Part shown: piece after piece, positions 18,044 through 55,419 of the stretch
Layout of the letters: each line of letters begins with the position of its first letter
Numbering within the stretch: the first letter of the stretch is position 1
Assembly (NCBI GenBank): GCA_021807085.1
Contig: JAKAPM010000002.1
Span: forward strand, 9,125-73,124
Length of the DNA: 64,000 bases
Direction of reading: 5' to 3'
Origin: Nanobdellota archaeon
Lineage (GTDB): Archaea > Nanobdellota > Nanobdellia > Parvarchaeales > Parvarchaeaceae
Made by a program: the position numbers and the translations under genes
Notes under the pieces: generated by a model
What the model saw: the letters and a program-made list of their open reading frames with translations, nothing else
Database searches by the model: none
Told to the model about the DNA's origin: nothing

Positions 18044-18114
18044 AGCCTCCAGAGGGAGTTGAACCCTCGTCTCCTGCTTACGAAGCAGATGCTCTACCGC
18101 TGAGCTATGGAGGC
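18044..18114 (-). tRNA. tRNA-Thr (anticodon CGU)
   Basis: Folded manually: acceptor GCCTCCA/TGGAGGC, D-arm GCTC-AGCGGTA-GAGC, anticodon stem TCTGC/GCAGG with loop TTCGTAA, T-arm GAGGG-TTCAACT-CCCTC. No encoded CCA. Confidence 0.8.
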
Positions 18115-25412: not shown

Positions 25413-26075
25413 ATGAGGGCGCAGTTTTCCTTCGAATTCGTCGTAGATGTAGCCCTTGCACTGGTCATCATAGGGTTCATAGTGGCCTTCTTTTCCTCCA
25501 TAACCACTAACAATACAGCCGCAGGGGATATGAACGGGATATGCAGTCTAATAGCCGATTCTGTGAACTCGGTCGTGAATTCCGGCGGCCTGTCCGCAAC
25601 GGTTTACCTTCCGCTGCAGAATATGACCGCAGCGGCTAATTACACGATAAACGTCTCAAACGGGGTCATAATAGTATACGCTTACTTCAACAAGAAGATA
25701 CCCGCGAAGTTCCTGTCCGGGACAAACGTCGTATCCTGCGGAGCCAACACCCGCGCCACGGCCAACGAATCGTTCGAACCTGCCAACCTGGTGCTGTACG
25801 CCAACTACAGCGACGTGGCTATAGGGTACGTGTACGCCAACTACAGCGCCAACTATTACCCATACTTCGTCTACGTCGGCGGATTCTACGGGAAGGCTAC
25901 TCTATACCTCCAGTATTCGAACGGCACCCTGCTGAAGCTTATGGACGCCACTTCCCCCTATATATACAACGCCAACGTAGGCCTTCCGATACTGACTACG
26001 GGCGAGTACACGCTGCTTGTGGAGGCGGACAACAACACAGCTCTGAGTGCCAGTCAGAGTTTCACGCTCGCTTAA
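25413..26075 (+). CDS. type IV pilin-like protein with class III signal peptide (220 aa)
   Basis: MRA|QFSFEFVVDVALALVIIGFIVAFF. Mature domain is Asn/Tyr/Ala-rich. Confidence 0.7.
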   Translation: MRAQFSFEFVVDVALALVIIGFIVAFFSSITTNNTAAGDMNGICSLIADSVNSVVNSGGLSATVYLPLQNMTAAANYTINVSNGVIIVYAYFNKKIPAKFLSGTNVVSCGANTRATANESFEPANLVLYANYSDVAIGYVYANYSANYYPYFVYVGGFYGKATLYLQYSNGTLLKLMDATSPYIYNANVGLPILTTGEYTLLVEADNNTALSASQSFTLA

Positions 26076-26126
26076 GGCATTTTCGGGTAAAAGTATACTT
26101 AAATAGAACAAAAAGGTTAATAGAAT

Positions 26127-26603
26127 ATGGTAAAAAGAGCACAGTCGGCTTTGGAGTACATGATGACGTATGGTTGGGCCATACTAATCATAGTAATCGT
26201 AGCTGCTGTCCTGTACTCGATGGGCATATTCAACCCTTCGAGCAGCGTAACCACGTCGTCGAGCGGCTTCAGCCCGTTCACCGTCAGCGCGGCGCTTTGC
26301 AACAGCTCAGGTACATGGGTATCTTTCGTTGTAGGCGGTTATCCTAACGGTGCACAGAGCGCGACCAGCGTGACCCTGACCCTCACCGCGACAAGCGGCG
26401 CGAGCGGCAGCGGCACTGCAACTGCAATCGGATCGCCGACATACACGTCTGGCACAAGCTTCAAAATGACAGCTGCTGGCGTAACATGCGCGACAGCCGG
26501 AGGAAAGTTCTCCGAGAGTGGTTCGATAGGTTACTCGGTAACCACGACACTAGGTGCGCAGTCTTACACAACGACGGGTACGGTAGCAGGATCAGCTAGT
26601 TAA
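26127..26603 (+). CDS. type IV pilin (class III signal peptide), Ser/Thr/Gly-rich, candidate major pilin (158 aa)
   Basis: MVKRA|QSALEYMMTYGWAILIIVIVAAVLYSMGIF. TATA-like aagtatacttaaatag about 27 nt upstream (leaderless). Followed by an oligo-T terminator at 26610..26640. Confidence 0.8.
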   Translation: MVKRAQSALEYMMTYGWAILIIVIVAAVLYSMGIFNPSSSVTTSSSGFSPFTVSAALCNSSGTWVSFVVGGYPNGAQSATSVTLTLTATSGASGSGTATAIGSPTYTSGTSFKMTAAGVTCATAGGKFSESGSIGYSVTTTLGAQSYTTTGTVAGSAS

Positions 26604-27310: not shown

Positions 27311-27930
27311 AAATTGATATAATAATAAGAAACTACGAAAACAGGGATTTTGACGGCGTATACGAACTGTACAGAAAGGCGTTTTCCGAGGAGCCGCTGA
27401 AAGAGTACAAGCGGTGCAAACTCTGCGGCGCTGACTACGGCTCAGAGCAGTTTGCGCCGAAGACATGCGGAAAATGCAAAAGTCCGCTAGAAATGGCGGA
27501 TAGCTGGAGCCGCAGAGATACTGCCAGTCTTATCGAGGATGTCGTTTCCAAGGTCTGGAAAATGGCGCTTGTGGCAGAGATAAACGGCGAGCTCGCGGGA
27601 TTCGTATGGGGATACAAAGCCAGCTGTAAACGCGGATCCCTCGAGAGTCTGGACACGCTGTTCATGGGCGATGTGCCAATAGTAACAGCTCCAGGCTTCA
27701 GGGACATCGGAATAGCGACGACCTTAGAGACCACTCTACTGTCGGAAGCCGCGAAAAACGGGATGGAATATGCATGGGTGTGTCCTTACGAGACATACAA
27801 ACCTGTTGTATCTCTGTATGAAAAGCGGGGATTTCGGATAGACAGAGGTGCCTGGACAGACGACAGGAAGGAAGGAATGTACCCTGTGAGGTTGCGCATG
27901 TTAAAACCGCTTAACATGTACGGCCCGTGA
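27277..27930 (+). CDS. GNAT-family N-acetyltransferase with inserted zinc-ribbon; no in-frame ATG/GTG/TTG before the GNAT N-terminal motif
   Basis: Frame open from 27277. IDIIIRNYENRDFDGVYELYRKAF (GNAT N-terminal beta-strand), CKLCGADYG...CGKCK insert, and a C-terminal GNAT core (first ATG only at 27493). Either frameshifted or a pseudogene. Confidence 0.55.
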   Translation, partial: RRREERFISGNKIDIIIRNYENRDFDGVYELYRKAFSEEPLKEYKRCKLCGADYGSEQFAPKTCGKCKSPLEMADSWSRRDTASLIEDVVSKVWKMALVAEINGELAGFVWGYKASCKRGSLESLDTLFMGDVPIVTAPGFRDIGIATTLETTLLSEAAKNGMEYAWVCPYETYKPVVSLYEKRGFRIDRGAWTDDRKEGMYPVRLRMLKPLNMYGP

Positions 27931-28682
27931 TTATGGAAACAGGTACGGGGGTGGGTAAAGCCACCCCTTCGAGAATAAACGGGCCCTTAGCGCCGACGAA
28001 GAAACCAGGCAGGATACTTCCATTATCCGACAACAAAGAAGTTAGAAAATTCCTTATTGCTGGCGGAAACTCAACCGCATTGGTGTATGGGTGCCCTGCT
28101 GCGTATAGGGGTGGAGCCGCAAAGAAGCTTTTGAAGGAAGTCGAACAGGTGGGTTTCGTTTCCGCGAGAGCGGGACTCCCAAAAATGACGATGATGGGCG
28201 GTGAACTCTGTATCAATGCAACACTAGCATTCGCCTCAACCTTGGACGAAGGAGGGAAACTTGCAGCAAGCGGTCTGAAAGACCTGGTCCGCTACTCAAA
28301 TAAAAACGAAACGGCTACGATCTGGGTCCCATTGGGATTCAAGAAATACGGAAATACCATCTTACTGGAGGGGATAGGATTCATACTCTATGATGTAAAG
28401 GAAAAATCTAAGATAGAAAAGCAGGAGCTTTTATCCTTATCAAAAAAGTATAGACTTCCTGCTTTTGGCGGGATTGTCTATGACGGGAATAGGATAACTC
28501 CCTACGTTTATGTGAAGAAGGTTGACTCTTTCGTTAAAGAAACCGCTTGCGGTTCCGGTAGCATCGCTTTTAGTATTTTCTCCGGGATCGGGAAGGTGAT
28601 CCAACCAACGGGAGAAAAACTCCGCATTAAGAGTAAGAAGAGGTTTTTCGAGGTCTCTGCAAAAGTTAGTGATTATGCATAG
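27927..28682 (+). CDS. DapF/PhzF-fold-like protein (251 aa), uncertain
   Basis: C-terminal TACGSGSIAF resembles the second-half Cys motif of diaminopimelate-epimerase-fold enzymes. Start overlaps the GNAT stop (ATGA). Confidence 0.35.
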   Translation: MIMETGTGVGKATPSRINGPLAPTKKPGRILPLSDNKEVRKFLIAGGNSTALVYGCPAAYRGGAAKKLLKEVEQVGFVSARAGLPKMTMMGGELCINATLAFASTLDEGGKLAASGLKDLVRYSNKNETATIWVPLGFKKYGNTILLEGIGFILYDVKEKSKIEKQELLSLSKKYRLPAFGGIVYDGNRITPYVYVKKVDSFVKETACGSGSIAFSIFSGIGKVIQPTGEKLRIKSKKRFFEVSAKVSDYA

Positions 28683-28984
28683 AGATTATACGTCATCCCA
28701 AATTTTAGAGTTTAATGCCTGTTCTTGGCCAGAAAAGCCATGACAGAATCGTCCTCGTACACTATCCTGGCTTCTGCTGAGTGTGCGGTTATCTTGCAAA
28801 AAATACAATCCATGTAATTGGTTTACAATTCGCGTATTTAAAATTTAAAAAACCGACAAACAATTTCATTAATGCAGATTTAGTTCGTGGAAAATGTCGG
28901 TGTTACTGGGATAAATTACAATATGGCAAGTCGGCAACGGTTTACTGTTTGTCACAGATAACAGCCTGATAGAAGTTAAGCTGC

Positions 28985-29833
28985 TTATCTCCGGAACCCT
29001 TTCGCAGCTCCAAGTGTGTACGCGTTCACCTTGTCCATGTTCAATACTGTATTGTCAGCAGCATCGATAAGGCCGTCTCTCAGTCTACCCTGCGCATCTA
29101 TGGAAAAAGCATCCGTGGACAGAAGTCTCCTTATCTTGGTCACCGCATCGCCGACGTTATCGCCGGATAGTCCGCCAGCAAAGCATATGTTTCCCCCGAA
29201 ACCGCTGCTTTTCAGTTCGTTATATATAATCCCAAGTTCCTCTATCTTCAAAGAGACTCCTCTCCCTCCTGATGGGTCCAGTATTACGTAATCTGAGCCG
29301 CTGTAATCTCTCATAATCCTATCAGCTGTCTGGTACGGTCGCAGGTTCTGCATGGCCTTCCTTGTCGCAGACAGTATTATCATCAGACTGGGATAATTCT
29401 CCTTTAGTTTACGGATGGAATCTTTCGGCGGCCAGGTTACATTGAGCTGTACACCAAGCCCGGGATTGTCCTTGTATATATTGTCTTTTTCGAGGACTGA
29501 CGATAGCTCGTAATAAAGGTTTCCGACGTCTTTCGTATTGTAGTGTATGGTATTGAAGGCTTTTCCACGCGATGTTTCAATCAAGTCTGCGAGGTCTCTT
29601 AACGGCGGATATCTCTTGTCTCCCGGGTTGTACCCAAATTCCAGGGTTTTGTAGGAGACCAAGTAACCAATCATTGGAATATGAGTCGTATTCATATCTA
29701 TGCCCGACCTTTCGAATGCCTTTAGGCAGCCCACGACCTCGTGCTTAGACGTTGCACCGGTTATGCCTATATAGTTTTTACCGGCTGCAGTTCGGTCGTG
29801 ATAGTCCAGCTTTGCTTCTAGTTTTTCTGACAT
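28985..29833 (-). CDS. hypothetical protein (282 aa), possibly TIM-barrel-like
   Basis: C-terminal FAGGLSGDNVGDAV resembles a phosphate-binding loop of TIM-barrel enzymes. GC is somewhat lower than the core genes. Confidence 0.45.
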   Translation of the reverse strand: MSEKLEAKLDYHDRTAAGKNYIGITGATSKHEVVGCLKAFERSGIDMNTTHIPMIGYLVSYKTLEFGYNPGDKRYPPLRDLADLIETSRGKAFNTIHYNTKDVGNLYYELSSVLEKDNIYKDNPGLGVQLNVTWPPKDSIRKLKENYPSLMIILSATRKAMQNLRPYQTADRIMRDYSGSDYVILDPSGGRGVSLKIEELGIIYNELKSSGFGGNICFAGGLSGDNVGDAVTKIRRLLSTDAFSIDAQGRLRDGLIDAADNTVLNMDKVNAYTLGAAKGFRR

Positions 29834-30086
29834 ACCCTAATAAGATTAAATTCTGTATAAATAGATTAACGAAAGAGAGATATTGTATATCATTCATGCG
29901 GCTTTCTTCAGTATTTTCGACACATAATCTATGTCAGTAAAAACTAAAACCTACCGATTTATTTATTGCAAGTTGCCCACATCATCCAGGCTGTAGAATA
30001 TCTTTCCATTGGGCTTTATTCTCTTGAACTCTTCCAGTTCTTTGCCCCGACCGGGTGCCGACATTTCTGTCATATTAGAATGATAT

Positions 30087-31070
30087 TTAATGTTTGTTGT
30101 TATATTTAAATCCATGCAATAGAATTCTTACTACCATAATTTCAGATGTGTCATATATTGTTTCTATTAAGAGTTCTCCCGATTCTTTATTTTTTTCTAC
30201 CCATTCTTTTATGGTTTTTACGTTTGTGGGATTTATGCCATGGATGAAAAAGCCTGGAAATTCATAGGTATAAGAACTAATAATTTTTTGCTTTACCTCA
30301 TCTTCTAAATCATCTATTGACATGTTGCTATTAACAAAAATTGCTAACACAGCATTTTTTATAACTAATTCATATATTGAATCAGCTTTCTTGCGTTCTG
30401 TATAAGAATAGAGTGGATAAATAAATTTTTCAAAATAATCTGCATTACATAAGTTAGCTATATTATTACCACGCATACCAAATCTTTGACTTATTTGTTG
30501 TTTTAGATGCACAATATTTTTTCCCTTTTTACTTTGAGATCTTAAAAATAAAGAGTTTGCTAAGGCATCCAGATCATATTCGGGAATTTTATCTTTGAAA
30601 TACTCTAATAATGCATCATCCGCTCTTTTATTTTGTGAGGAGTTATAACTAGCAAGTTCATCAAATATCTCTAAATCCTCGGCTCTAAAGATTGCTTTAT
30701 CACGTTCGGTTTTACGTTCGATTAATATCTTAGATAACTCTTCTTTTTCTGAATCTGTTAATTTGTCCGCATTTATAATCAGTTGTCTTTTACCTTCTAA
30801 ATAAAGCACTTTTTCACTGTTTTCATTAGATGTTGTTACCCCTACTTGCTCTACAATTTCTTCTTTTTGCTCCGTTTTTTGTGAGGGGGTATTATAGAAG
30901 ATATTCACTGTACCAACATCATGTATGTTTATTGATTTTTTGCCAGAACTAACATTGTTATTGCTCCCACTAATAGTTTTAACATCTACACTATCATTAT
31001 TTGTTTCGTGTTCGCCACCAAGTATCTTTTTTACAAATTCTAATGCAAGAATAAGATAGTGGTGTACCAT
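30087..31070 (-). CDS. hypothetical protein of integrated element (327 aa)
   Basis: AT-rich ORF (Asn/Lys/Ile-rich) with no motif recognised. Confidence 0.5.
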   Translation of the reverse strand: MVHHYLILALEFVKKILGGEHETNNDSVDVKTISGSNNNVSSGKKSINIHDVGTVNIFYNTPSQKTEQKEEIVEQVGVTTSNENSEKVLYLEGKRQLIINADKLTDSEKEELSKILIERKTERDKAIFRAEDLEIFDELASYNSSQNKRADDALLEYFKDKIPEYDLDALANSLFLRSQSKKGKNIVHLKQQISQRFGMRGNNIANLCNADYFEKFIYPLYSYTERKKADSIYELVIKNAVLAIFVNSNMSIDDLEDEVKQKIISSYTYEFPGFFIHGINPTNVKTIKEWVEKNKESGELLIETIYDTSEIMVVRILLHGFKYNNKH

Positions 31071-31076
31071 ACCACA

Positions 31077-31436
31077 TCAATTTCTTTTGAACAGTCTACG
31101 TATAGAATCTACATTGTCTTCTATAAAAATATCAGAGCCATTTTTTATACCACCAAAGTTTTTCTTCAATATATTATTACCTTCAAAGGTAATGACTTTT
31201 TCTTTATTCTTTTTATTAATTATATACCCTTCTTTATCTGTTTCATAGCCAAAGGTGTCCAAAACAAAGTCAATAGCCGAACTATCAAATGTTATGTCTA
31301 GGTTTTCATCAACATTCTTATAAGTGTTAAGTTCTGTTTGCATATTATTATTATTACTATTATGTATAAATATTCGATTAATGACACCTTCTGCCTTATA
31401 AAGCTTACTAACTATCGAGTTAGAGAGGATCTTCAT
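31077..31436 (-). CDS. hypothetical protein of integrated element (119 aa)
   Basis: AT-rich ORF. Stop overlaps the integrase start region. Confidence 0.45.
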   Translation of the reverse strand: MKILSNSIVSKLYKAEGVINRIFIHNSNNNNMQTELNTYKNVDENLDITFDSSAIDFVLDTFGYETDKEGYIINKKNKEKVITFEGNNILKKNFGGIKNGSDIFIEDNVDSIRRLFKRN

Positions 31437-32389
31437 AAAGCCCCCTCTCTAAGCTTCTTATTCAGCTCCAAAACCGCCGGCAGGATGTCACGCCCAGATA
31501 AATGCACGTAAATCTTGGGCATCCCGCTTCCTTGAATCCACCCTAGGTACACGCACATCTGTGATTCTGTCAGATATTGCGCCAAAAACGTAGCCCTCGA
31601 ATGCCTGAAAAGATATGAATAAACCCTCTTGTCGAAATTCAATTTAAGGGCAAGGTTCTTTATTAGAGAGTTGAGCCAATATACGCTCACAGGGAACAGC
31701 TTGTCCGCCGGCTTGATCGGATTTGCTTCTAGGTACTGCTCCAGATAATAATCGCTTCTTGTCGTCAATATCACCGGAATCTGCCTCGAACCCGTCTTAG
31801 TGTTCTCCGGCACATAGACGAAAAGCCCGTTCTCGTTCTTTTGCACGTCCTGCCTATTTAATGACAATAATTCGTGCGGACGGCAGCCCGTATCGTAAAG
31901 AAGACTTAATACGGCTTTATCTAAAGGTTTTTTAGCGGCGTCTATAATCCGTTTTATCTCGTCCAAAGACAGCGTTTCGTGTGGCAGCATACGTTTCTCT
32001 TTTGTTTGGAATCGGTAACGGGACAGTTTTAAGTCCGGATCCAGCCACAGGGCGAACTTTCTGAACCTGCTTAGGTAATGTTTTTTTGTCTCGAAGACGA
32101 AGTCGCTGGAGCGTATATACTCGAAAAACCTGTCCACGTCCTCGGCTGTGACGAGGCTTATGTCCGGTTTTACCGCTTTTTGGAACCGGTTAAGGACGAC
32201 GACATACCACTCCTTAGTCCTTTCATTGAAGCCCTCTCTGTCCAATTCCTTCAAAAACCGGCTGATTATCTCGTTTTCCACGTCAAAGCACTCCGGTTCT
32301 CGTGCCCATCCCCGACAATTCACCATTAAGGCCAGACGCAGCCGGCTCTGAGCCGGCGCTGCAATCGTCGCTGTCTTCGTGTTCCCCAT
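31433..32389 (-). CDS. int: tyrosine recombinase / phage-type integrase (XerC/D-like)
   Basis: 318 aa. The C-terminal catalytic region has GCRPHELLSL, HSRATFLAQ (H-x-x-R) and the YLGW...YVHL tyrosine region. Lies about 450 nt from the tRNA-Glu 3' end. Confidence 0.8.
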   Translation of the reverse strand: MGNTKTATIAAPAQSRLRLALMVNCRGWAREPECFDVENEIISRFLKELDREGFNERTKEWYVVVLNRFQKAVKPDISLVTAEDVDRFFEYIRSSDFVFETKKHYLSRFRKFALWLDPDLKLSRYRFQTKEKRMLPHETLSLDEIKRIIDAAKKPLDKAVLSLLYDTGCRPHELLSLNRQDVQKNENGLFVYVPENTKTGSRQIPVILTTRSDYYLEQYLEANPIKPADKLFPVSVYWLNSLIKNLALKLNFDKRVYSYLFRHSRATFLAQYLTESQMCVYLGWIQGSGMPKIYVHLSGRDILPAVLELNKKLREGAL

Positions 32390-32499
32390 AATTTAAGCTT
32401 TCTCCGGCTGCTCTCGTATCTCTTCCACGGTCACCCTGACGACCTTGCCGGCTAGAGAGTTTGAAAGGATTAAAATTAAACGAGGGATTATAATAATTA

Positions 32500-32655
32500 A
32501 TGGATTGGGAATGCATAGCAGGGATAATTGCGTTTATTGTTCTTGGAAGTGTAATTGGATTAGTAGGAGAGCAGGTCTCAAATGTAGCAGTCCTGATTAT
32601 TGGCGCAGTTATCATAGTTGTACCATCCGGCTTAATTGCTTATTTCTGTCGATAA
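32500..32655 (+). CDS. small membrane protein (51 aa) within element
   Basis: MDWECIAGIIAFIVLGSVIGLVGEQVSNVAVLIIGAVIIVVPSGLIAYFCR; two hydrophobic segments. Speculative. Confidence 0.3.
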   Translation: MDWECIAGIIAFIVLGSVIGLVGEQVSNVAVLIIGAVIIVVPSGLIAYFCR

Positions 32656-32838
32656 TTGAAGGCAGCCAAAACGCCTCAGAATTAATAAGAAAACCGGTAA
32701 TTAACAATGTAAGAGTAATTTCTTGGGATTTTGAAAGTAAAATCAAAGAAAACCAAAAATAGCTAGTCGCAATAAGTATAAAACTAGTAATTCTTAAGAG
32801 AGTTAGTCTCTCTCGCTTCTTTCCCCGTTTTCTCTCGA

Positions 32839-32930
32839 TGCCCCGACCGGGATTTGAACCCGGGTTTCTGCCTGTCCTCCCAAAAGGTCGAAAGGGCAAT
32901 GTCCTTGGCCGCTAGACTATCGGGGCACCA
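32839..32930 (-). tRNA. tRNA-Glu (anticodon UUC) with a ~15-nt intron at canonical position 37/38
   Basis: Acceptor GCCCCGA/TCGGGGC, D-arm GTCT-AGCGGCCAA-GGAC, anticodon stem TTGCC/GGCAG with loop CTTTCG|A interrupted by ACCTTTTGGGAGGAC, T-arm CCGGG-TTCAAAT-CCCGG. The loop CUUUCGA is the characteristic archaeal tRNA-Glu loop. Confidence 0.75.
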
Positions 32931-33011: not shown

Positions 33012-34202
33012 ATGCCCAACGTAACCTTCTACTTTGAGGTGCACCAGCCGTACAGGCTGAGGAGAGTGTTCTCCTTCGACAAGAACCAGAATTTCATCGA
33101 CACGGACAGGAACAGGGCAGTATTCGGCAAGGTGGCCGACAAATGCTACATACCGATGACGAAGATGCTTGTGGACCTAAACAAGGAATACCCAGAGCTG
33201 AAGACGAGCTTCTCGTTCACGGGCATATTCTTCGAGCAGGCAGAGGAATTCAGGCCGGATGTTATCAACGTTTTCCAGGAGCTGTTCGACACGGGCTCTA
33301 TGGAGATACTGGACGAAACCTACTACCATTCGCTCGCCTACCTGATAGACAGGGACGAATTCGAGGACCAGGTGAAGCTGCACAGAGAGGCGATACACCG
33401 ATACTTCAAGTTCAAACCGACGGTCTTCAGGAACACGGAGGCCATGTATTCCAACGACATAGCCTCCCTGGCCGCTAAGATGGGTTACAAGGCGATAGTC
33501 GCGGAGGGATGGGAGAAGAGCCTCGGATGGAGGTCGCCTAACTACGTTTATACGGATCCCGGCAGGAAAATAAATTTACTCCTGAGAAACTACAAGCTGA
33601 GCGACGACATATCGTTCAGGTTCTCGTCCCATGGATGGAAAGAGTACCCTCTGACGTCGGAAAAGTACGCGGGTTGGCTCGCCGACAACGAAGGGGACAC
33701 AGTCAACCTATTCATGGACTACGAGACCTTCGGCGAGCACCAATGGAAGGATACCGGGATATTTGACTTCTTTAGGGCTCTTCCGGGAGACATGATAAAA
33801 AAGGGTATTGGGTTCAACAAGGTGTCCGACACGGCAGCCGTAAAGCCTGTCGGTATAGTGGATGTACCGGACATAATGTCGTGGGCAGACGTGGACAGGG
33901 ACCTCACGGCATGGCTCGGCAACAGGATGCAGAATGCTGCGTTCGAGAAGCTGAAAGGCATGAGGAAGGACGTGCTGCAGACGGAAGACAAGGACATAAT
34001 AAGCGAGTGGAGGGTTCTGCAGACTTCTGACAACTTCTATTACATGTGCACGAAGTGGTTCGCGGACGGGGATGTGCACAAGTATTTCAACGCGTACGAT
34101 TCTCCGTACGTGGCGTACATAAACTACATGAACATAATATCCGACCTGGACAGAAGGGTCAAATCCGCTTTAGAGCTGCGTCGTAAGCCTGCAGATATAT
34201 AG
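33012..34202 (+). CDS. glycoside hydrolase family 57 protein (alpha-amylase/4-alpha-glucanotransferase/branching-enzyme family)
   Basis: 396 aa. N-terminal FYFEVHQPYR motif typical of GH57, and the overall length. Confidence 0.7.
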   Translation: MPNVTFYFEVHQPYRLRRVFSFDKNQNFIDTDRNRAVFGKVADKCYIPMTKMLVDLNKEYPELKTSFSFTGIFFEQAEEFRPDVINVFQELFDTGSMEILDETYYHSLAYLIDRDEFEDQVKLHREAIHRYFKFKPTVFRNTEAMYSNDIASLAAKMGYKAIVAEGWEKSLGWRSPNYVYTDPGRKINLLLRNYKLSDDISFRFSSHGWKEYPLTSEKYAGWLADNEGDTVNLFMDYETFGEHQWKDTGIFDFFRALPGDMIKKGIGFNKVSDTAAVKPVGIVDVPDIMSWADVDRDLTAWLGNRMQNAAFEKLKGMRKDVLQTEDKDIISEWRVLQTSDNFYYMCTKWFADGDVHKYFNAYDSPYVAYINYMNIISDLDRRVKSALELRRKPADI

Positions 34203-35936
34203 GCAGGAACTTTTCCCATCCGAACTGCTCAGACAGCTCCCTAGCGGACACCCTCATCTTCAGCAGCTCGTCCTGGTTGGTCGTCACTATCTTCAGCATG
34301 TCGCGGGATATCTGGCCGACGACGTCGTCCCTCTTCCTGTTTATCAGGCGTTCCACGAATATCCCTCCGGACTGCTCCTTGATCTCGTTGATGCAGTATT
34401 CACCGAACCCTCCTTGGTCGGTGGTGAAGGCTATGGACATGTAGGACGCCGCCTCGAGGGGGGTGTAGCCGAACGGCTCGTACTTGGACAGGAAGAACCC
34501 AGCAACAGCTATCGAGAGGGCCTCGTGGTAGGTTAGGTTTAGAAGCTCGTCTCCGAGAGTCAGGTACTTGGGGTAGTATATGACCTTCACGTGGCAGTTG
34601 GGGGAGTTGTCCAGGCCGTTCTCCCTCAGCCTGCTGAGTATCTGGTCGTCATTTTCTGAATAGGATAGTATGAACGGGCACAGGGGCGGATTGACCAGCT
34701 TGGAACGCCTAAGCTGCGACGTCATCCTCTTGGTGTCGTTCACTATCTTGCTGTATGCCTTGTCCATGACTGCCGACGCTGTGGTCGGATTGGACGAGAC
34801 CAGCTTGTCGAAGCTCTCTATGTCTTCGTGCAGGGTGGCTTTTATGCCGAGGTAAGTTAGGTAATTCGCCACCACGTCGCTCTTGGTCCCTACGGTACCG
34901 GACGGGACGGCGATGAAGGCTACCACGTAATTGTCGTCGGACAGCGTCTTGTTGAGCCTGCCGAGAGCGTCTATGAAAAGATCGAAACCCTTCCCGTAGA
35001 ACTCGTACCTTCCCCCTGTCAGGAAGACTGTGGCCTTCTTCGCATCGAAGTCGTAGTAGGGAAGGAAATACCCGTTAACGAAGTTTTCGAACTTCGCTTG
35101 GGCGCTGTTCCTAAGTGCATCTAGGTCCACCGGCGCGGGCAGGTCCTTCAGGTCTATCCCGTTTATGGTCACGAAATCGGTCTTTCTTCCGAGCATTACC
35201 TCCGCTTCCTTAGCGACTATCTTGCTCACGGTCGTGAACACCGTCGCGTTCAGGGCCGCAGCCTTCTCCGTGAGGTGCTTTGCGGCAACGCCGTATTGGT
35301 AGGGGAGGGAAGGGCCTACGCTAGTGTTAGAGTTTACGAACGCCAGAGTATCCCCCCCGTTGTAGGATATCGCCCTTCCGAGGACGGTCGCGTGTACCGT
35401 GAAGACAGTGGGGACCCTTACGTTGCTGGATTTAAGGTAGAGAAGTGCGCCGGCGGAAAGCCATTCGTGCACCTGGGCCACCATCGGCATGTGCACTGCC
35501 TTGCTGAGGGAAGCCAGGAACACGCCAGCCGTGTACGACCACGCGAGCGGCTCGGTGTAGTCCTCCGGAGCATTGAGCGAATCTATCTTGAATTTGTCCC
35601 AGAACTCCTTCTTTATCTCGTTACCGTGCCTCTGTTCGAATTCTTTGGAGTCTATCAGGAGAAGATTTACATCGCTTCCGGACGCCCATCTGCCGAAGTA
35701 TATCTTTACGCCGTCGAGCTTGATGTCGGCTATGGCGTCCTTGACGAACTGCGGCGCCGGCGCCTCTACGAATTCTATCGCGCACTGCGTGGGGTTGTAG
35801 AAGCCTACGGCTAGGTAGTTAGGGCCGAACTTCTGCTTGATGTATTCCGATTTCGAGGTTAGGACGGTCCATATTCCCCCGACTTTGTTGCCCGCCTCGA
35901 ACGATACCTCCGCCAAAAAATAGGGACTGGACATAC
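34159..35936 (-). CDS. glycogen(starch) synthase, eukaryote-like GT3-type
   Basis: Probable start MSSPYFLAEVSFEAGNKVGGIWTVL (cf. eukaryotic glycogen synthase EVANKVGGIYTVL); 592 aa. The ORF track extends 30 codons further upstream. The 3' end overlaps the convergent GH57 gene by about 44 nt. Confidence 0.7.
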
Positions 35937-36099
35937 AATAATAGTGGGTCGTTTTCAATATATTAGTTGCTGTCGAAACTTGGGTCCCGCACGGGAGCCG
36001 GAAGGGCGGACTACACACCACATATGGATTTGGCTTTAATTAATGTGCAAAGCCCATGAGAAAAATAACTATTTATAGAGATACTCTTCAGTAGTTGAC

Positions 36100-55347: not shown

Positions 55348-55419
55348 AGCCTCTGGCGAGTGATGATCTCGCGACCTTCTGCTTACAAGGCAGACGCTCT
55401 ACCGCTGAGCTACAGAGGC
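55348..55419 (-). tRNA. tRNA-Thr (anticodon UGU), unusual T-loop
   Basis: Acceptor GCCTCTG/CAGAGGC, D-arm GCTC-AGCGGTA-GAGC, anticodon stem TCTGC/GCAGA with loop CTTGTAA, T-stem GCGAG/CTCGC with loop ATCATCA (lacks the usual T54 and A58). Confidence 0.6.

What the first reader, a model, noticed from the sequence alone, without database searches (positions are those of the whole stretch)
30043..32930. Small AT-rich integrated element at tRNA-Glu with intact integrase and 13-bp att direct repeat
The exact 13-mer TGCCCCGACCGGG occurs at 30043..30055 and at 32839..32851, the latter being the 3' terminus of the tRNA-Glu gene (chance expectation in 64 kb is about 0.002). The interval between them is sharply AT-rich compared with flanking genes. 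It contains a full-length XerC/D-type tyrosine recombinase oriented toward the tRNA, two unknown ORFs (327 and 119 aa) and a tiny membrane ORF. At ~2.8 kb this is far smaller than typical archaeal integrated plasmids or proviruses. It may be a minimal integrative element or a decayed remnant. The lower-GC stretch 28700..30040 to its left could be an older adjacent insertion.
Basis: seen in the sequence. Interest (0 to 1): 0.6.

Follow-up and report, generated by a model that had tools for sequence, protein, structure and literature searches.

The report
Mini integrative element at archaeal tRNA-Glu
A 2.8-kb mobile element, carrying only an integrase and a two-gene cargo of unknown function, sits in the 3' end of the tRNA-Glu gene of an ultra-small (DPANN) archaeon, and it belongs to a previously undescribed family of 2-5 kb elements that share the same ends but carry different, often antiviral, cargo genes.

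Summary
TGCCCCGACCGGG occurs only at 30043-30055 and 32839-32851, and the second copy is the 3' end of an intron-containing tRNA-Glu(UUC) on the minus strand. Between the copies lie an intact tyrosine integrase and an AT-rich gene pair (88/119 aa and 327 aa).

The "minimal integrative element" reading is supported; "decayed remnant" is not. Seven further elements (2.0-4.9 kb) in related Parvarchaeota/Nanoarchaeota-type contigs have the same core, the same conserved ends and a 63-81% identical integrase. Their cargo differs: AbiL/PARIS-like ATPase pairs, a Card1-like nuclease with an MTase-Mrr fusion, and others.

Two related species have an empty tRNA-Glu site. Two hosts with 99.3% identical flanks carry different elements at the same site.

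Corrections: only the cargo half is sharply AT-rich, and the integrase reads away from the tRNA.

New features: the distal end carries a conserved TATA-like box and an ATG 18 nt before att. In silico circularisation joins them to a 74-88-aa membrane-protein ORF in 6 of 8 elements, upstream of int. This resembles the Pcirc promoter of ICEclc.

The 327-aa protein belongs to a large unnamed family that is always paired with the small gene; its function is inferred (defence or toxin-antitoxin), not shown. No excised circle was found.

The parts
32839..32926 (-). tRNA-Glu(UUC) gene with a 15-nt intron. It is the integration target and remains intact after integration.
   Evidence: Rfam RF00005 at 54.8 bits.
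32839..32851 (-). tRNA-proximal att copy. On the tRNA strand the core reads CCCGGTCGGGGCA, which is the last 13 nt of the tRNA.
32814..32838 (-). Conserved proximal end of the element (TCGAGAGAAAACGGGGAAAGAAGCG on the minus strand). It is present in most of the elements aligned (L110 differs here) and absent downstream of the tRNA at empty sites.
   Evidence: Alignment of the proximal ends and comparison with the empty sites L025 and L022.
32612..32838 (-). Distal-less body of an ORF that has no start codon of its own. It is in frame with att and with the ATG at 30073. After in silico circularisation it gives an 85-aa protein with a basic N-terminus and hydrophobic segments.
   Evidence: The frame in phase with the distal ATG stays open for 68-82 codons in 6 of 8 elements, against 4-35 codons in the other frames.
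32500..32655 (+). 51-aa hydrophobic ORF, antisense to the rest of the element. Other elements have small membrane ORFs in the same spacer, but these are not detectably homologous. Its status is uncertain.
32461..32473 (-). Conserved motif TAATCCTTTCAAA, 70-90 nt upstream of the integrase start. It is a candidate internal promoter region for the integrase.
   Evidence: Function is inferred only.
31433..32389 (-). Tyrosine integrase. The longest ORF is 318 aa; the likely GTG start at 32281 gives 282 aa. Candidate catalytic residues R170, K198, Y259 (in the usual His position), R262, W284 and the nucleophile Y294 are all invariant in the family.
   Evidence: Pfam PF00589 (E = 3.9e-11) and a sub-cutoff PF13495 match; PHROG 1, integrase; archaeal XerA structures 4a8e and 5hxy; alignment A4.
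31077..31436 (-). Small cargo gene: 119-aa longest ORF, with an 88-aa version starting at 31343. Its start overlaps the integrase stop in an ATGA. It is the conserved partner of the 327-aa gene.
   Evidence: 38% identity to the L009 88-aa protein. It aligns with the small genes upstream of family members in L101 and L104.
30087..31070 (-). 327-aa cargo gene. It belongs to a large unnamed family whose members are typically 265-285 aa. It has a helical middle domain and a C-terminal beta-alpha-beta-alpha-beta-beta (Alba/IF3-C-like) domain carrying a conserved IHGxG motif. Its last 9 codons run into the conserved distal end.
   Evidence: 495 cluster representatives at E <= 1e-3. No Pfam, NCBIfam, PADLOC or PHROG match. 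AlphaFold2 model with pLDDT 85.4. Foldseek hits cover only the C-terminal domain.
30056..30113 (-). Conserved distal end of the element, about 58 nt. It holds a TATA-like box TTTAAATAT (30110->30102), the motif ATCATTCTAATATG, and an ATG at 30073 that lies exactly 18 nt before att. It is a candidate outward-facing promoter plus start codon.
   Evidence: Conserved in 8 of 8 elements with fixed spacing, while the upstream cargo does not align.
30043..30055 (-). Distal att copy, which marks the element/host boundary.

Best explanation
Window 30043-32851 is an integrated copy of a minimal, non-replicative mobile element of 2,796 bp from att to att. It belongs to a family found in Parvarchaeota/Nanoarchaeota-type DPANN archaea.

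Its tyrosine integrase recombines a 13-nt core on the element with the identical last 13 nt of the host tRNA-Glu(UUC) gene. The tRNA stays intact and the element ends up flanked by direct repeats. This is integration with an intact integrase gene, not the SSV type.

The family backbone is: att, a conserved proximal end, a spacer with a small membrane ORF, the integrase, a cargo slot that starts at the integrase stop codon, a conserved 58-nt distal end, and att. The cargo slot holds different AT-rich modules in different elements. Here it holds a conserved pair of genes (about 88 aa and about 300 aa) of unknown function. The pair is most likely a two-component defence or toxin-antitoxin module, because sibling elements carry recognisable defence systems in the same slot.

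The distal end carries an outward-facing TATA-like box and a near-leaderless ATG. Once the element excises and circularises, these are joined across att to a small membrane-protein ORF and lie upstream of the integrase. Expression of that ORF, and probably of the integrase, should therefore switch on only in the free circular form. This is the logic of the Pcirc promoter of ICEclc.

Because the element has no replication, capsid or transfer genes, its spread must depend on something else, such as vesicles, viruses or cell contact.

Shown here: the anatomy, the family, the empty sites and the replacement of one element by another between near-identical hosts. Inferred: excision and circularisation, promoter activity, the role of the split ORF, and the cargo function.
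For: Repeat and target:
- The exact 13-mer occurs only twice, and one copy is the tRNA-Glu 3' end.

Integrase:
- It has a Pfam PF00589 domain, a PHROG integrase match and invariant catalytic residues.
- Its nearest annotated viral relatives are integrases of archaeal pleomorphic viruses, at 35% identity.

Family:
- Eight elements of 2045-4874 bp have both att copies, the conserved proximal end (one element, L110, differs) and the conserved 58-nt distal end with fixed ATG-to-core spacing.
- All the close integrase homologues whose contig reaches that far lie next to a tRNA-Glu(UUC).

Mobility:
- L025 and L022 have the GH57 gene and tRNA-Glu with a single core, no integrase and no proximal-end motif.
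- L019 and L002 share host flanks (99.3% over 3,850 bp on the left, 94.7% on the right) but carry different elements, with 68% nucleotide identity in the integrase and unrelated cargo.
- Integrase identity does not track host identity. For L009 the integrase is 78% identical while GH57 and GlgA are 67% and 64%. For L021 the integrase is 64-73% while GH57 and GlgA are 78% and 77%.
- L106 and L108 show a tandem array.

Cargo:
- In all eight elements the cargo slot is 26-34% GC, against 36-48% for the integrase.
- Sibling cargo includes AbiLi/AriA/PDC-M38A-like ATPases with a partner gene, a type II MTase-Mrr fusion with a Card1/CARF-PD-(D/E)xK-like nuclease, and a weak HEPN-like match.
- The small-plus-large pair is conserved in L009, L101 and L104. 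In L104 it lies next to a type I restriction-modification system.

Split ORF:
- The frame in phase with the distal ATG is open for 68-82 codons in 6 of 8 elements, and the products have one or two hydrophobic segments.

Precedent for the promoter logic: ICEclc Pcirc (PMC5812530).
Against: - No excised circle or attP junction was found. A scan for the distal motif joined to the core gave no hits in IMG/VR or JGI metagenome contigs, and the 2,735-bp contig L105 is simply the integrated form.
- All relatives come from MAGs or metagenome contigs, so some mosaics (L001, L013) could be assembly chimeras.
- In L021, L016 and L015 the att-spanning ORF is only 43-49 aa and not hydrophobic, and an antisense membrane ORF is present instead. 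The split-gene reading is therefore not universal.
- The conserved ends could simply be integrase arm-binding sites.
- The cargo pair matches no known defence or toxin-antitoxin model, so its role rests on position and context alone.
- The L021 integrase is frameshifted, which shows that some copies decay.
Confidence: 0.85

Rival explanations
1. It is a decayed remnant of a larger provirus or integrated plasmid, of which only the integrase and a few leftover genes survive between the old att sites.
For: The element has no replication, capsid or transfer gene. One relative (L021) has a frameshifted integrase. No circular form was found.
Against: Eight elements from different hosts are all 2.0-4.9 kb and share both conserved termini with fixed spacing, which random decay would not preserve. 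The integrase is intact in 7 of 8 and its catalytic residues are invariant. No larger relative carrying the same integrase appeared in any contig, or in IMG/VR or the phage and plasmid collections. Near-identical hosts carry different small elements, so the small form itself turns over.
Confidence: 0.07
2. The recombinase is a host XerA-like chromosomal gene inherited vertically next to tRNA-Glu. The 13-bp repeat is either a chance match or a small duplication, and the neighbouring genes are ordinary variable host genes.
For: Pfam and PDB matches are to XerC/D/XerA-type recombinases. Integrase homologues occupy the same GH57/tRNA-Glu locus in several species. More distant relatives at 46% identity or less are mostly not next to tRNAs.
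Against: The repeat is absent from shuffled sequence and recurs with the same core and the same conserved ends in seven other elements. L025 and L022 have the locus without the gene. The gene also occurs at a tRNA-Glu in a different chromosomal context, in L002 and L019. Integrase identity does not follow host identity. Similarity to XerA is only E = 1e-8.
Confidence: 0.03
3. The element is real, but the conserved distal and proximal ends are only recombination sites (integrase arm sites and bending sites). The att-spanning ORF and the promoter are coincidental, and the real spacer gene is the antisense small membrane ORF.
For: attP regions of tyrosine-integrase elements usually contain conserved arm sites, which is established knowledge. 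Gene callers annotate the antisense 51-, 61-, 109-, 111- and 125-aa membrane ORFs. In L021, L016 and L015 the att-spanning ORF is short.
Against: The ATG lies exactly 18 nt from the core in 8 of 8 elements, and a TTTAAATAT box sits about 30 nt upstream of it. That spacing fits an archaeal promoter driving a near-leaderless mRNA. The in-phase frame stays open for 68-82 codons in six diverged, AT-rich spacers where the other frames close after 4-35 codons. None of these ORFs has an N-terminal Met of its own.
Confidence: 0.35

Closest known systems
Cryptic integrated elements (CIE) of archaea, as defined for Thaumarchaeota (Krupovic et al. 2019, PMC6563490); the smallest is NitUzo-E2 at 2.6 kb with 4 genes
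   Same: Both are site-specific tyrosine-integrase elements flanked by att direct repeats. Both lack virus, plasmid-replication and conjugation hallmark genes. They are the same size class as the smallest CIE, and both carry defence-type cargo ('guns for hire').
   Different: The host lineage is different (DPANN, Parvarchaeota/Nanoarchaeota-type). This is a coherent family with one target (tRNA-Glu), conserved termini and a defined cargo slot coupled to the integrase stop codon. It also has an att-spanning ORF and an outward promoter. CIE is a catch-all class with no signature genes.
pNOB8-type (integrase-intact) versus SSV-type (integrase-splitting) archaeal integration
   Same: As in the pNOB8 type, the integrase gene stays whole after integration and the element is bounded by a short repeat inside a tRNA gene.
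   Different: Unlike pNOB8-like plasmids (tens of kb, conjugative), this element is 2.8 kb with no replication or transfer genes. A gene does appear to be split by integration, as in the SSV type, but it is a small membrane-protein ORF and not the integrase. The statements about pNOB8 and SSV rest on my own knowledge of the field.
ICEclc of Pseudomonas (18-bp identity with the tRNA-Gly 3' end; outward Pcirc promoter; PMC5812530)
   Same: Both have a short core identical to the 3' end of a tRNA gene. In both, a promoter at the far end faces outward when integrated and is placed upstream of the integrase only after circularisation.
   Different: ICEclc is a bacterial conjugative element of more than 100 kb, and its promoter activity has been measured. 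Here the promoter is only predicted from sequence, the element is about 40 times smaller, and the junction also creates a coding sequence.
Tycheposons of Prochlorococcus (Hackl et al., bioRxiv 10.1101/2020.12.28.424599)
   Same: Both occur in hosts with streamlined genomes. Both have an inward-facing tyrosine integrase next to a tRNA, modular exchangeable cargo, tandem arrays at the same tRNA, and likely dependence on vesicles or viruses for transfer.
   Different: Tycheposons are bacterial, usually 10-20 kb, have a lineage-specific integrase and usually a replication module, and often carry nutrient-uptake cargo. None of these defining genes is present here.

Membership tests
tRNA-targeting tyrosine-integrase integrative element (integrase-intact type) | Tyrosine recombinase with a complete catalytic set | tested here: met
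   PF00589 at E = 3.9e-11. R170, K198, Y259, R262, W284 and Y294 are invariant across 17 homologues.
tRNA-targeting tyrosine-integrase integrative element (integrase-intact type) | Direct repeats at both ends, one of them inside a tRNA gene that stays intact | tested here: met
   The 13-nt exact repeat includes the tRNA-Glu 3' end. The same holds in seven relatives.
tRNA-targeting tyrosine-integrase integrative element (integrase-intact type) | Empty target site in related genomes, or a different occupant in near-identical hosts | tested here: met
   L025 and L022 are empty. L019 and L002 have 99.3% identical flanks and different elements.
tRNA-targeting tyrosine-integrase integrative element (integrase-intact type) | Excised circular form carrying attP | tested here: inconclusive
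   No attP junction was found in IMG/VR or JGI contigs, and L105 is the integrated form. Raw reads from the source samples could not be searched.
SSV-type integration | attP lies inside the integrase gene, which is split on integration | tested here: not met
   The integrase ORF 31433-32389 is uninterrupted and lies 450 nt from att.
Provirus | Capsid, packaging or other virion genes | tested here: not met
   Only the integrase matches PHROGs. IMG/VR and INPHARED hold no relatives of the cargo.
Integrated plasmid or ICE | Replication initiator or conjugation genes | tested here: not met
   The 119-, 327- and 51-aa products have no Pfam or NCBIfam hits, and PLSDB holds no match. Very divergent Rep proteins cannot be excluded.
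Cryptic integrated element (Krupovic 2019) | An integrase-bounded element with att repeats and no hallmark genes of the other MGE classes | tested here: met
   This follows from the rows above. The definition is taken from PMC6563490.
Archaeal XerA / dif chromosome-resolution system | Single conserved host gene acting at a dif site, present in all relatives | tested here: not met
   The gene is absent from L025, L022 and L023 at this locus, is flanked by att repeats, and resembles XerA only weakly (E = 1e-8). A dif site was not searched for.
Known anti-phage defence systems (PADLOC) for the 88/119-aa plus 327-aa cargo | Match to a PADLOC, Pfam or NCBIfam defence protein model | tested here: not met
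   The window cargo gives no hits. Sibling elements do match AbiLi/AriA/PDC-M38A, type II MTase and CARF-nuclease models.
Tycheposons | Lineage-specific tyrosine recombinase plus shared replication hallmark genes | not tested
   There was no direct comparison with tycheposon integrases. No replication module is present. I treat tycheposons as a functional analogue only.

The most novel reading that the evidence does not exclude
These elements may be a dedicated cassette-shuttle system of ultra-small DPANN archaea. In this reading a fixed integrase backbone with a defined cargo slot moves anti-viral modules between cells. A membrane-protein gene that exists only in the excised circle would mediate or signal transfer, for example through vesicles or the cell-cell bridge to the host archaeon. 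The widespread pair of an ~85-aa and a ~270-aa gene carried here would be a new two-component defence system, with an Alba/Smr-like IHGxG effector domain.
Probability: 0.2. Interest if true: 0.8.

Novelty: new variant of a known kind. Interest (0 to 1): 0.55.

Why it matters
DPANN archaea have tiny genomes and very few described mobile elements. How they exchange genes, and how they defend themselves against viruses, is poorly known.

This family of 2-5 kb elements has one precise target and recognisable ends. That gives a simple handle for finding mobile DNA in their MAGs and a list of cargo modules that are probably under selection for defence. It is also a candidate minimal integration system (one integrase of about 282 aa and a 13-nt core inside about 100 bp of attP) that could be developed into a genetic tool for organisms that currently have none.

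The predicted gene that is assembled only on circularisation can be tested directly. The 88-aa plus ~300-aa pair points to an uncharacterised protein family of several hundred sequence clusters.

Tried and rejected
- Default ARAGORN missed the tRNA because of its intron. Rfam and ARAGORN with introns allowed resolved this.
- I looked for an empty site or a circle in assemblies of the same species. All six contigs (L003-L008, L105) are the integrated form, and the odd end of L006 is an inverted-duplication artefact.
- A scan for the distal motif joined to the core found nothing in IMG/VR or JGI contigs.
- Protein scans of IMG/VR with the integrase and the cargo profile found nothing.
- The JGI scan with the integrase profile returned only relatives at 46% identity or less. 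These are mostly not next to tRNAs, so they did not extend the family.
- The word-indexed homologue search saw the 327-aa protein as an orphan, and a profile re-search found only five proteins at E <= 1e-5. Only the exhaustive HMMER search found the family.
- A single-sequence AlphaFold2 model was poor (pLDDT 48); the MSA-based model was good.
- PDB profile searches for both cargo proteins found nothing significant.
- I searched for older att remnants left of 30043 to test the proposed older insertion and found none.
- I considered an Smr-nuclease assignment for the C-terminal domain, based on the IHGxG motif and the beta-alpha-beta-alpha-beta-beta topology. No Pfam Smr hit appeared in 44 family members, so this remains a resemblance only.


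Full report
**1. The observation**

TGCCCCGACCGGG occurs exactly twice in the window, at 30043-30055 and 32839-32851. None of 100 dinucleotide-preserving shuffles contained two copies, and allowing two mismatches adds no further copy.

Default ARAGORN found no tRNA at this position. Rfam's tRNA model matches 32839-32926 on the minus strand at 54.8 bits.

On the tRNA strand the repeat reads CCCGGTCGGGGCA. It consists of the 3' strand of the T stem, the 3' acceptor strand and the discriminator base.

**2. Anatomy of the interval**

All the main genes lie on the minus strand, the same strand as the tRNA, and read away from it. In order they are:
- the tRNA (32926->32839);
- a 450-nt spacer;
- a 318-aa tyrosine recombinase (32389->31433);
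- a 119-aa ORF whose ATG overlaps the integrase stop codon (31436->31077);
- a 327-aa ORF (31070->30087);
- the second repeat copy (30055->30043).

A 51-aa hydrophobic ORF (32500-32655) lies antisense in the spacer.

The recombinase has a Phage_integrase domain and a sub-cutoff match (24.2 vs 27 bits) to the SAM-like N-terminal domain. It matches PHROG 1, integrase, and is weakly similar to archaeal XerA structures. Its nearest annotated viral relatives are integrases of archaeal pleomorphic viruses, at 35% identity.

In an alignment of 17 homologues, R170, K198, Y259, R262, W284 and Y294 are invariant. I read these as the catalytic Arg-Lys-(His->Tyr)-Arg-Trp-Tyr set, by comparison with the XerD motifs. 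That assignment rests on established knowledge of the family and was not tested here.

Homologues begin at a position equivalent to V37, which is a GTG codon at 32281. The real product is therefore probably 282 aa.

The composition is not uniform:
- cargo, about 30% GC, which is the lowest kilobase in the 64-kb window;
- spacer, 38% GC;
- integrase, 48% GC;
- host flanks, 45-53% GC.

**3. The same element in other samples**

Six other contigs from ENA and Logan assemblies are 99.9-100% identical to the window across this region, and all show the integrated form.

A MAG contig, L001 (GCA_027320385.1), is 99.94% identical to the window to the right of 32460. At its end it carries 224 bp of unique sequence and then an integrase 5' end that is 97.6% identical to the integrase of a different element, L002. 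This is either strain-level mosaicism or a chimeric contig end.

**4. A family of mini-elements**

The closest integrase homologues (63-81% identity) all come from metagenomic contigs of Parvarchaeota/Nanoarchaeota-labelled DPANN archaea. Wherever the contig reaches far enough, they lie just downstream of a tRNA-Glu(UUC).

The last 13 nt of the tRNA recur downstream in seven further elements, with one substitution in L106:

| Element | Length, att to att (bp) |
|---|---|
| window | 2,796 |
| L002 | 2,220 |
| L009 | 3,291 |
| L019 | 2,045 |
| L021 | 4,056 |
| L110 | 3,369 |
| L016 | 4,874 |
| L106 | 3,521 |

The elements share three sequence features:
- About 25 nt immediately after the tRNA, (T/A)T(C/T)GAGAGAAAACGGGGAAAGAAG; L110 differs here.
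- In five of the eight (window, L002, L009, L016, L021), the motif TAATCCTTTCAAA 70-90 nt upstream of the integrase.
- In all eight, about 58 nt immediately before the distal repeat. This stretch holds TTTAAATAT, then ATCATTCTAATATG, then exactly 15 nt, then the core.

Everything between the integrase stop codon and this distal block fails to align between elements.

**5. Evidence for mobility**

A scan of species-representative genomes with the neighbouring GH57 gene found the conserved GlgA/GH57/tRNA-Glu neighbourhood in five related species.
- L021 has a 4.06-kb element whose integrase is frameshifted.
- L025 and L022 have the tRNA with a single core, no integrase and no proximal-end motif. 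In L025 the tRNA is followed directly by ordinary metabolic genes.

L019 and L002 provide the strongest evidence. Their left flanks are 99.3% identical over 3,850 bp, and their right flanks are 94.7% identical over the 152 bp available. Between the att copies, however, the integrases are only 68% identical at the nucleotide level and the cargo is unrelated.

Integrase divergence does not follow host divergence:

| Locus | Integrase identity to window | GH57 / GlgA identity to window |
|---|---|---|
| L009 | 78% | 67% / 64% |
| L021 | 64-73% | 78% / 77% |

L106 and L108 show a degenerate distal end of one element abutting the att and proximal end of the next, which is a tandem array.

They also argue against a decayed remnant, because the small size and both termini are family characters.

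**6. Cargo**

In all eight elements the cargo slot is markedly more AT-rich (26-34% GC) than the integrase (36-48% GC). In four elements the first cargo gene overlaps the integrase stop codon in an ATGA.

Sibling cargo includes:
- 426-432-aa ATPases matching AbiLi, AriA (PARIS) and PDC-M38A models at E = 1e-27 to 1e-31, each followed by a 206-211-aa partner;
- a type II methyltransferase fused to an Mrr-like domain, together with a Card1/CARF-PD-(D/E)xK-like nuclease;
- a 175-aa protein with a weak HEPN-like match.

The window's 327-aa protein has no Pfam, NCBIfam, PADLOC or PHROG match, and it looked like an orphan in the word-indexed search. An exhaustive HMMER search found 495 cluster representatives at E <= 1e-3, mostly 265-285 aa and aligning to residues 80-318.

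In every context I could inspect (L101, L104 and the L009 element), the large gene is preceded by an 82-89-aa gene homologous to the C-terminal 88 aa of the window's 119-aa ORF. In L104 the pair lies next to a type I restriction-modification operon. The 337-aa protein of L009 matches the family profile at E = 7e-6, so the window and L009 elements carry diverged versions of the same two-gene module.

An MSA-based AlphaFold2 model is confident (pLDDT 85.4). Foldseek matches only the C-terminal beta-alpha-beta-alpha-beta-beta domain (residues 242-318) to Alba, Pop7, IF3-C, SpoVS and SepF-like folds, at weak E-values.

The nearly invariant residues (D166, K190, G198, R200, G201, N206, Y212, Y233, F245, Y269, H277, G280, N283) include an IHGxG motif after the second strand. 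This recalls Smr nucleases, but no Smr hit was obtained, so it is a resemblance only.

I infer, but have not shown, that the pair is a two-component defence or toxin-antitoxin module.

**7. A gene and promoter assembled by circularisation**

In all eight elements an ATG lies exactly 18 nt before the distal core. A TTTAAATAT box lies about 30 nt upstream of the ATG, which fits an archaeal TATA box driving a near-leaderless mRNA. The spacing argument rests on general knowledge of archaeal promoters.

In the integrated state this unit points out of the element. When the two ends are joined in silico, the ATG continues through att (encoding P-G-R-G) into an ORF at the tRNA-proximal end that has no start codon of its own. 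The products are as follows:
- 74-88 aa in six elements, with a basic N-terminus and one or two hydrophobic segments; the window product is 85 aa, MTEMSAPGRGIERKRGKKRE...;
- 43-49 aa in L021 and L016.

After att, the in-phase frame stays open for 68-82 codons in those six elements, whereas the other two frames close after 4-35 codons.

The same junction would place the promoter upstream of the integrase. This is the logic demonstrated for the Pcirc promoter of ICEclc, which also uses a short identity (18 bp) with a tRNA 3' end (PMC5812530).

I rate this reading at about 0.5. The alternative is that the conserved ends are only integrase arm sites and that the antisense membrane ORFs are the real spacer genes.

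**8. What was not found**

- No attP junction or related sequence was found in IMG/VR or JGI metagenome contigs.
- The cargo has no relatives in the phage or plasmid collections.
- The window holds no second integrase.
- Rfam finds no RNA family in the interval other than the tRNA.
- Integrase relatives at 46% identity or less are mostly not tRNA-associated.
- The suggested older insertion at 28700-30040 has no att remnant. However, the three genes at 27493-29833 have no homologues at this locus in seven related loci.

**9. Comparison with known systems and verdict**

The element meets the tested criteria for a tRNA-targeting tyrosine-integrase element of the integrase-intact type. It also fits the catch-all class of archaeal cryptic integrated elements, whose smallest reported member is 2.6 kb with four genes (PMC6563490). 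It is not an SSV-type element, a provirus, a recognisable plasmid or ICE, or a host XerA.

Functionally it resembles tycheposons of streamlined cyanobacteria, which have an inward-facing integrase at a tRNA, modular cargo and tandem arrays (bioRxiv 10.1101/2020.12.28.424599). It shares none of their defining genes.

The literature searches I ran found no description of this family in DPANN archaea.

I class it as a new variant of a known kind. It is solidly supported as a mobile mini-element family. It has two interesting but unproven features: expression that depends on the circular form, and a new two-gene cargo module.

Noticed in passing
L002:11750-17200: Directly after the mini-element's distal att lies a second, unrelated tyrosine integrase (405 aa, 32% identity), followed by a 254-aa ORF and a 997-aa MmeI-like type IIG restriction-modification gene. 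The tRNA-Glu site therefore appears to accumulate an island of several elements.
   Followed up: partly
L001:1-350 (corresponds to window ~32110-32460): A MAG contig that is 99.94% identical to the window to the right of 32460 ends in 224 bp of unique sequence plus an integrase 5' end that is 97.6% identical to the L002 element. This is either strain-level mosaicism or a chimeric contig end.
   Followed up: partly
L013:4858-5250 versus L009:10632: L013 is 100% identical to L009 up to about 3 nt before the first base of the conserved 58-nt distal end (L009 ~10635), and then diverges into unrelated sequence. The breakpoint falls at the cargo/end boundary, so it is either cargo exchange or an assembly branch at a repeat.
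   Followed up: partly
L106:70-165 and L108:70-165: A degenerate distal end (ATG changed to ATA) is followed by the variant core CCCGTTCGGGGCA and a normal proximal end. This is a tandem array of two elements with no tRNA between them.
   Followed up: yes
window 27493-29833: A GNAT acetyltransferase (145 aa), a 251-aa protein with a weak CntK_N/DapF-like hit, and a 282-aa protein with a weak PRAI-like hit form a block of slightly lower GC. It has no homologues at this locus in seven related loci. It is a variable region, but no integrase or att remnant is present.
   Followed up: partly
window 25413-26603: Two genes encode archaeal type IV pilin-like proteins (N-terminal QSALEYMMTYGWAILIIVIVAAVLY). 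Their synteny near the tRNA-Glu locus is conserved in L021, L022, L023 and L025, and in some of these the gene is duplicated.
   Followed up: no
L023:7390-8211: In this related species the region next to tRNA-Glu holds fragments that look like a broken transposase, and no integrase. The tRNA 3' end differs from the 13-nt core.
   Followed up: no
window 34159-34202: The GH57 gene (33012-34202, plus strand) and the glycogen-synthase-like gene (34159-36021, minus strand) overlap convergently by 44 bp. The same arrangement is seen in the related loci.
   Followed up: no
window 18044-18114 and 55348-55419: Two intron-less tRNA-Thr genes (CGU and UGU anticodons) have no nearby integrase or repeat.
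   Followed up: no
window 29963-30115: Gene callers annotate a 50-aa ORF here. It is the outward read-through of the element's distal ATG region into host DNA, and is probably not a real gene. The same outward promoter would point at the host 282-aa gene (29833->28985) on the same strand.
   Followed up: partly
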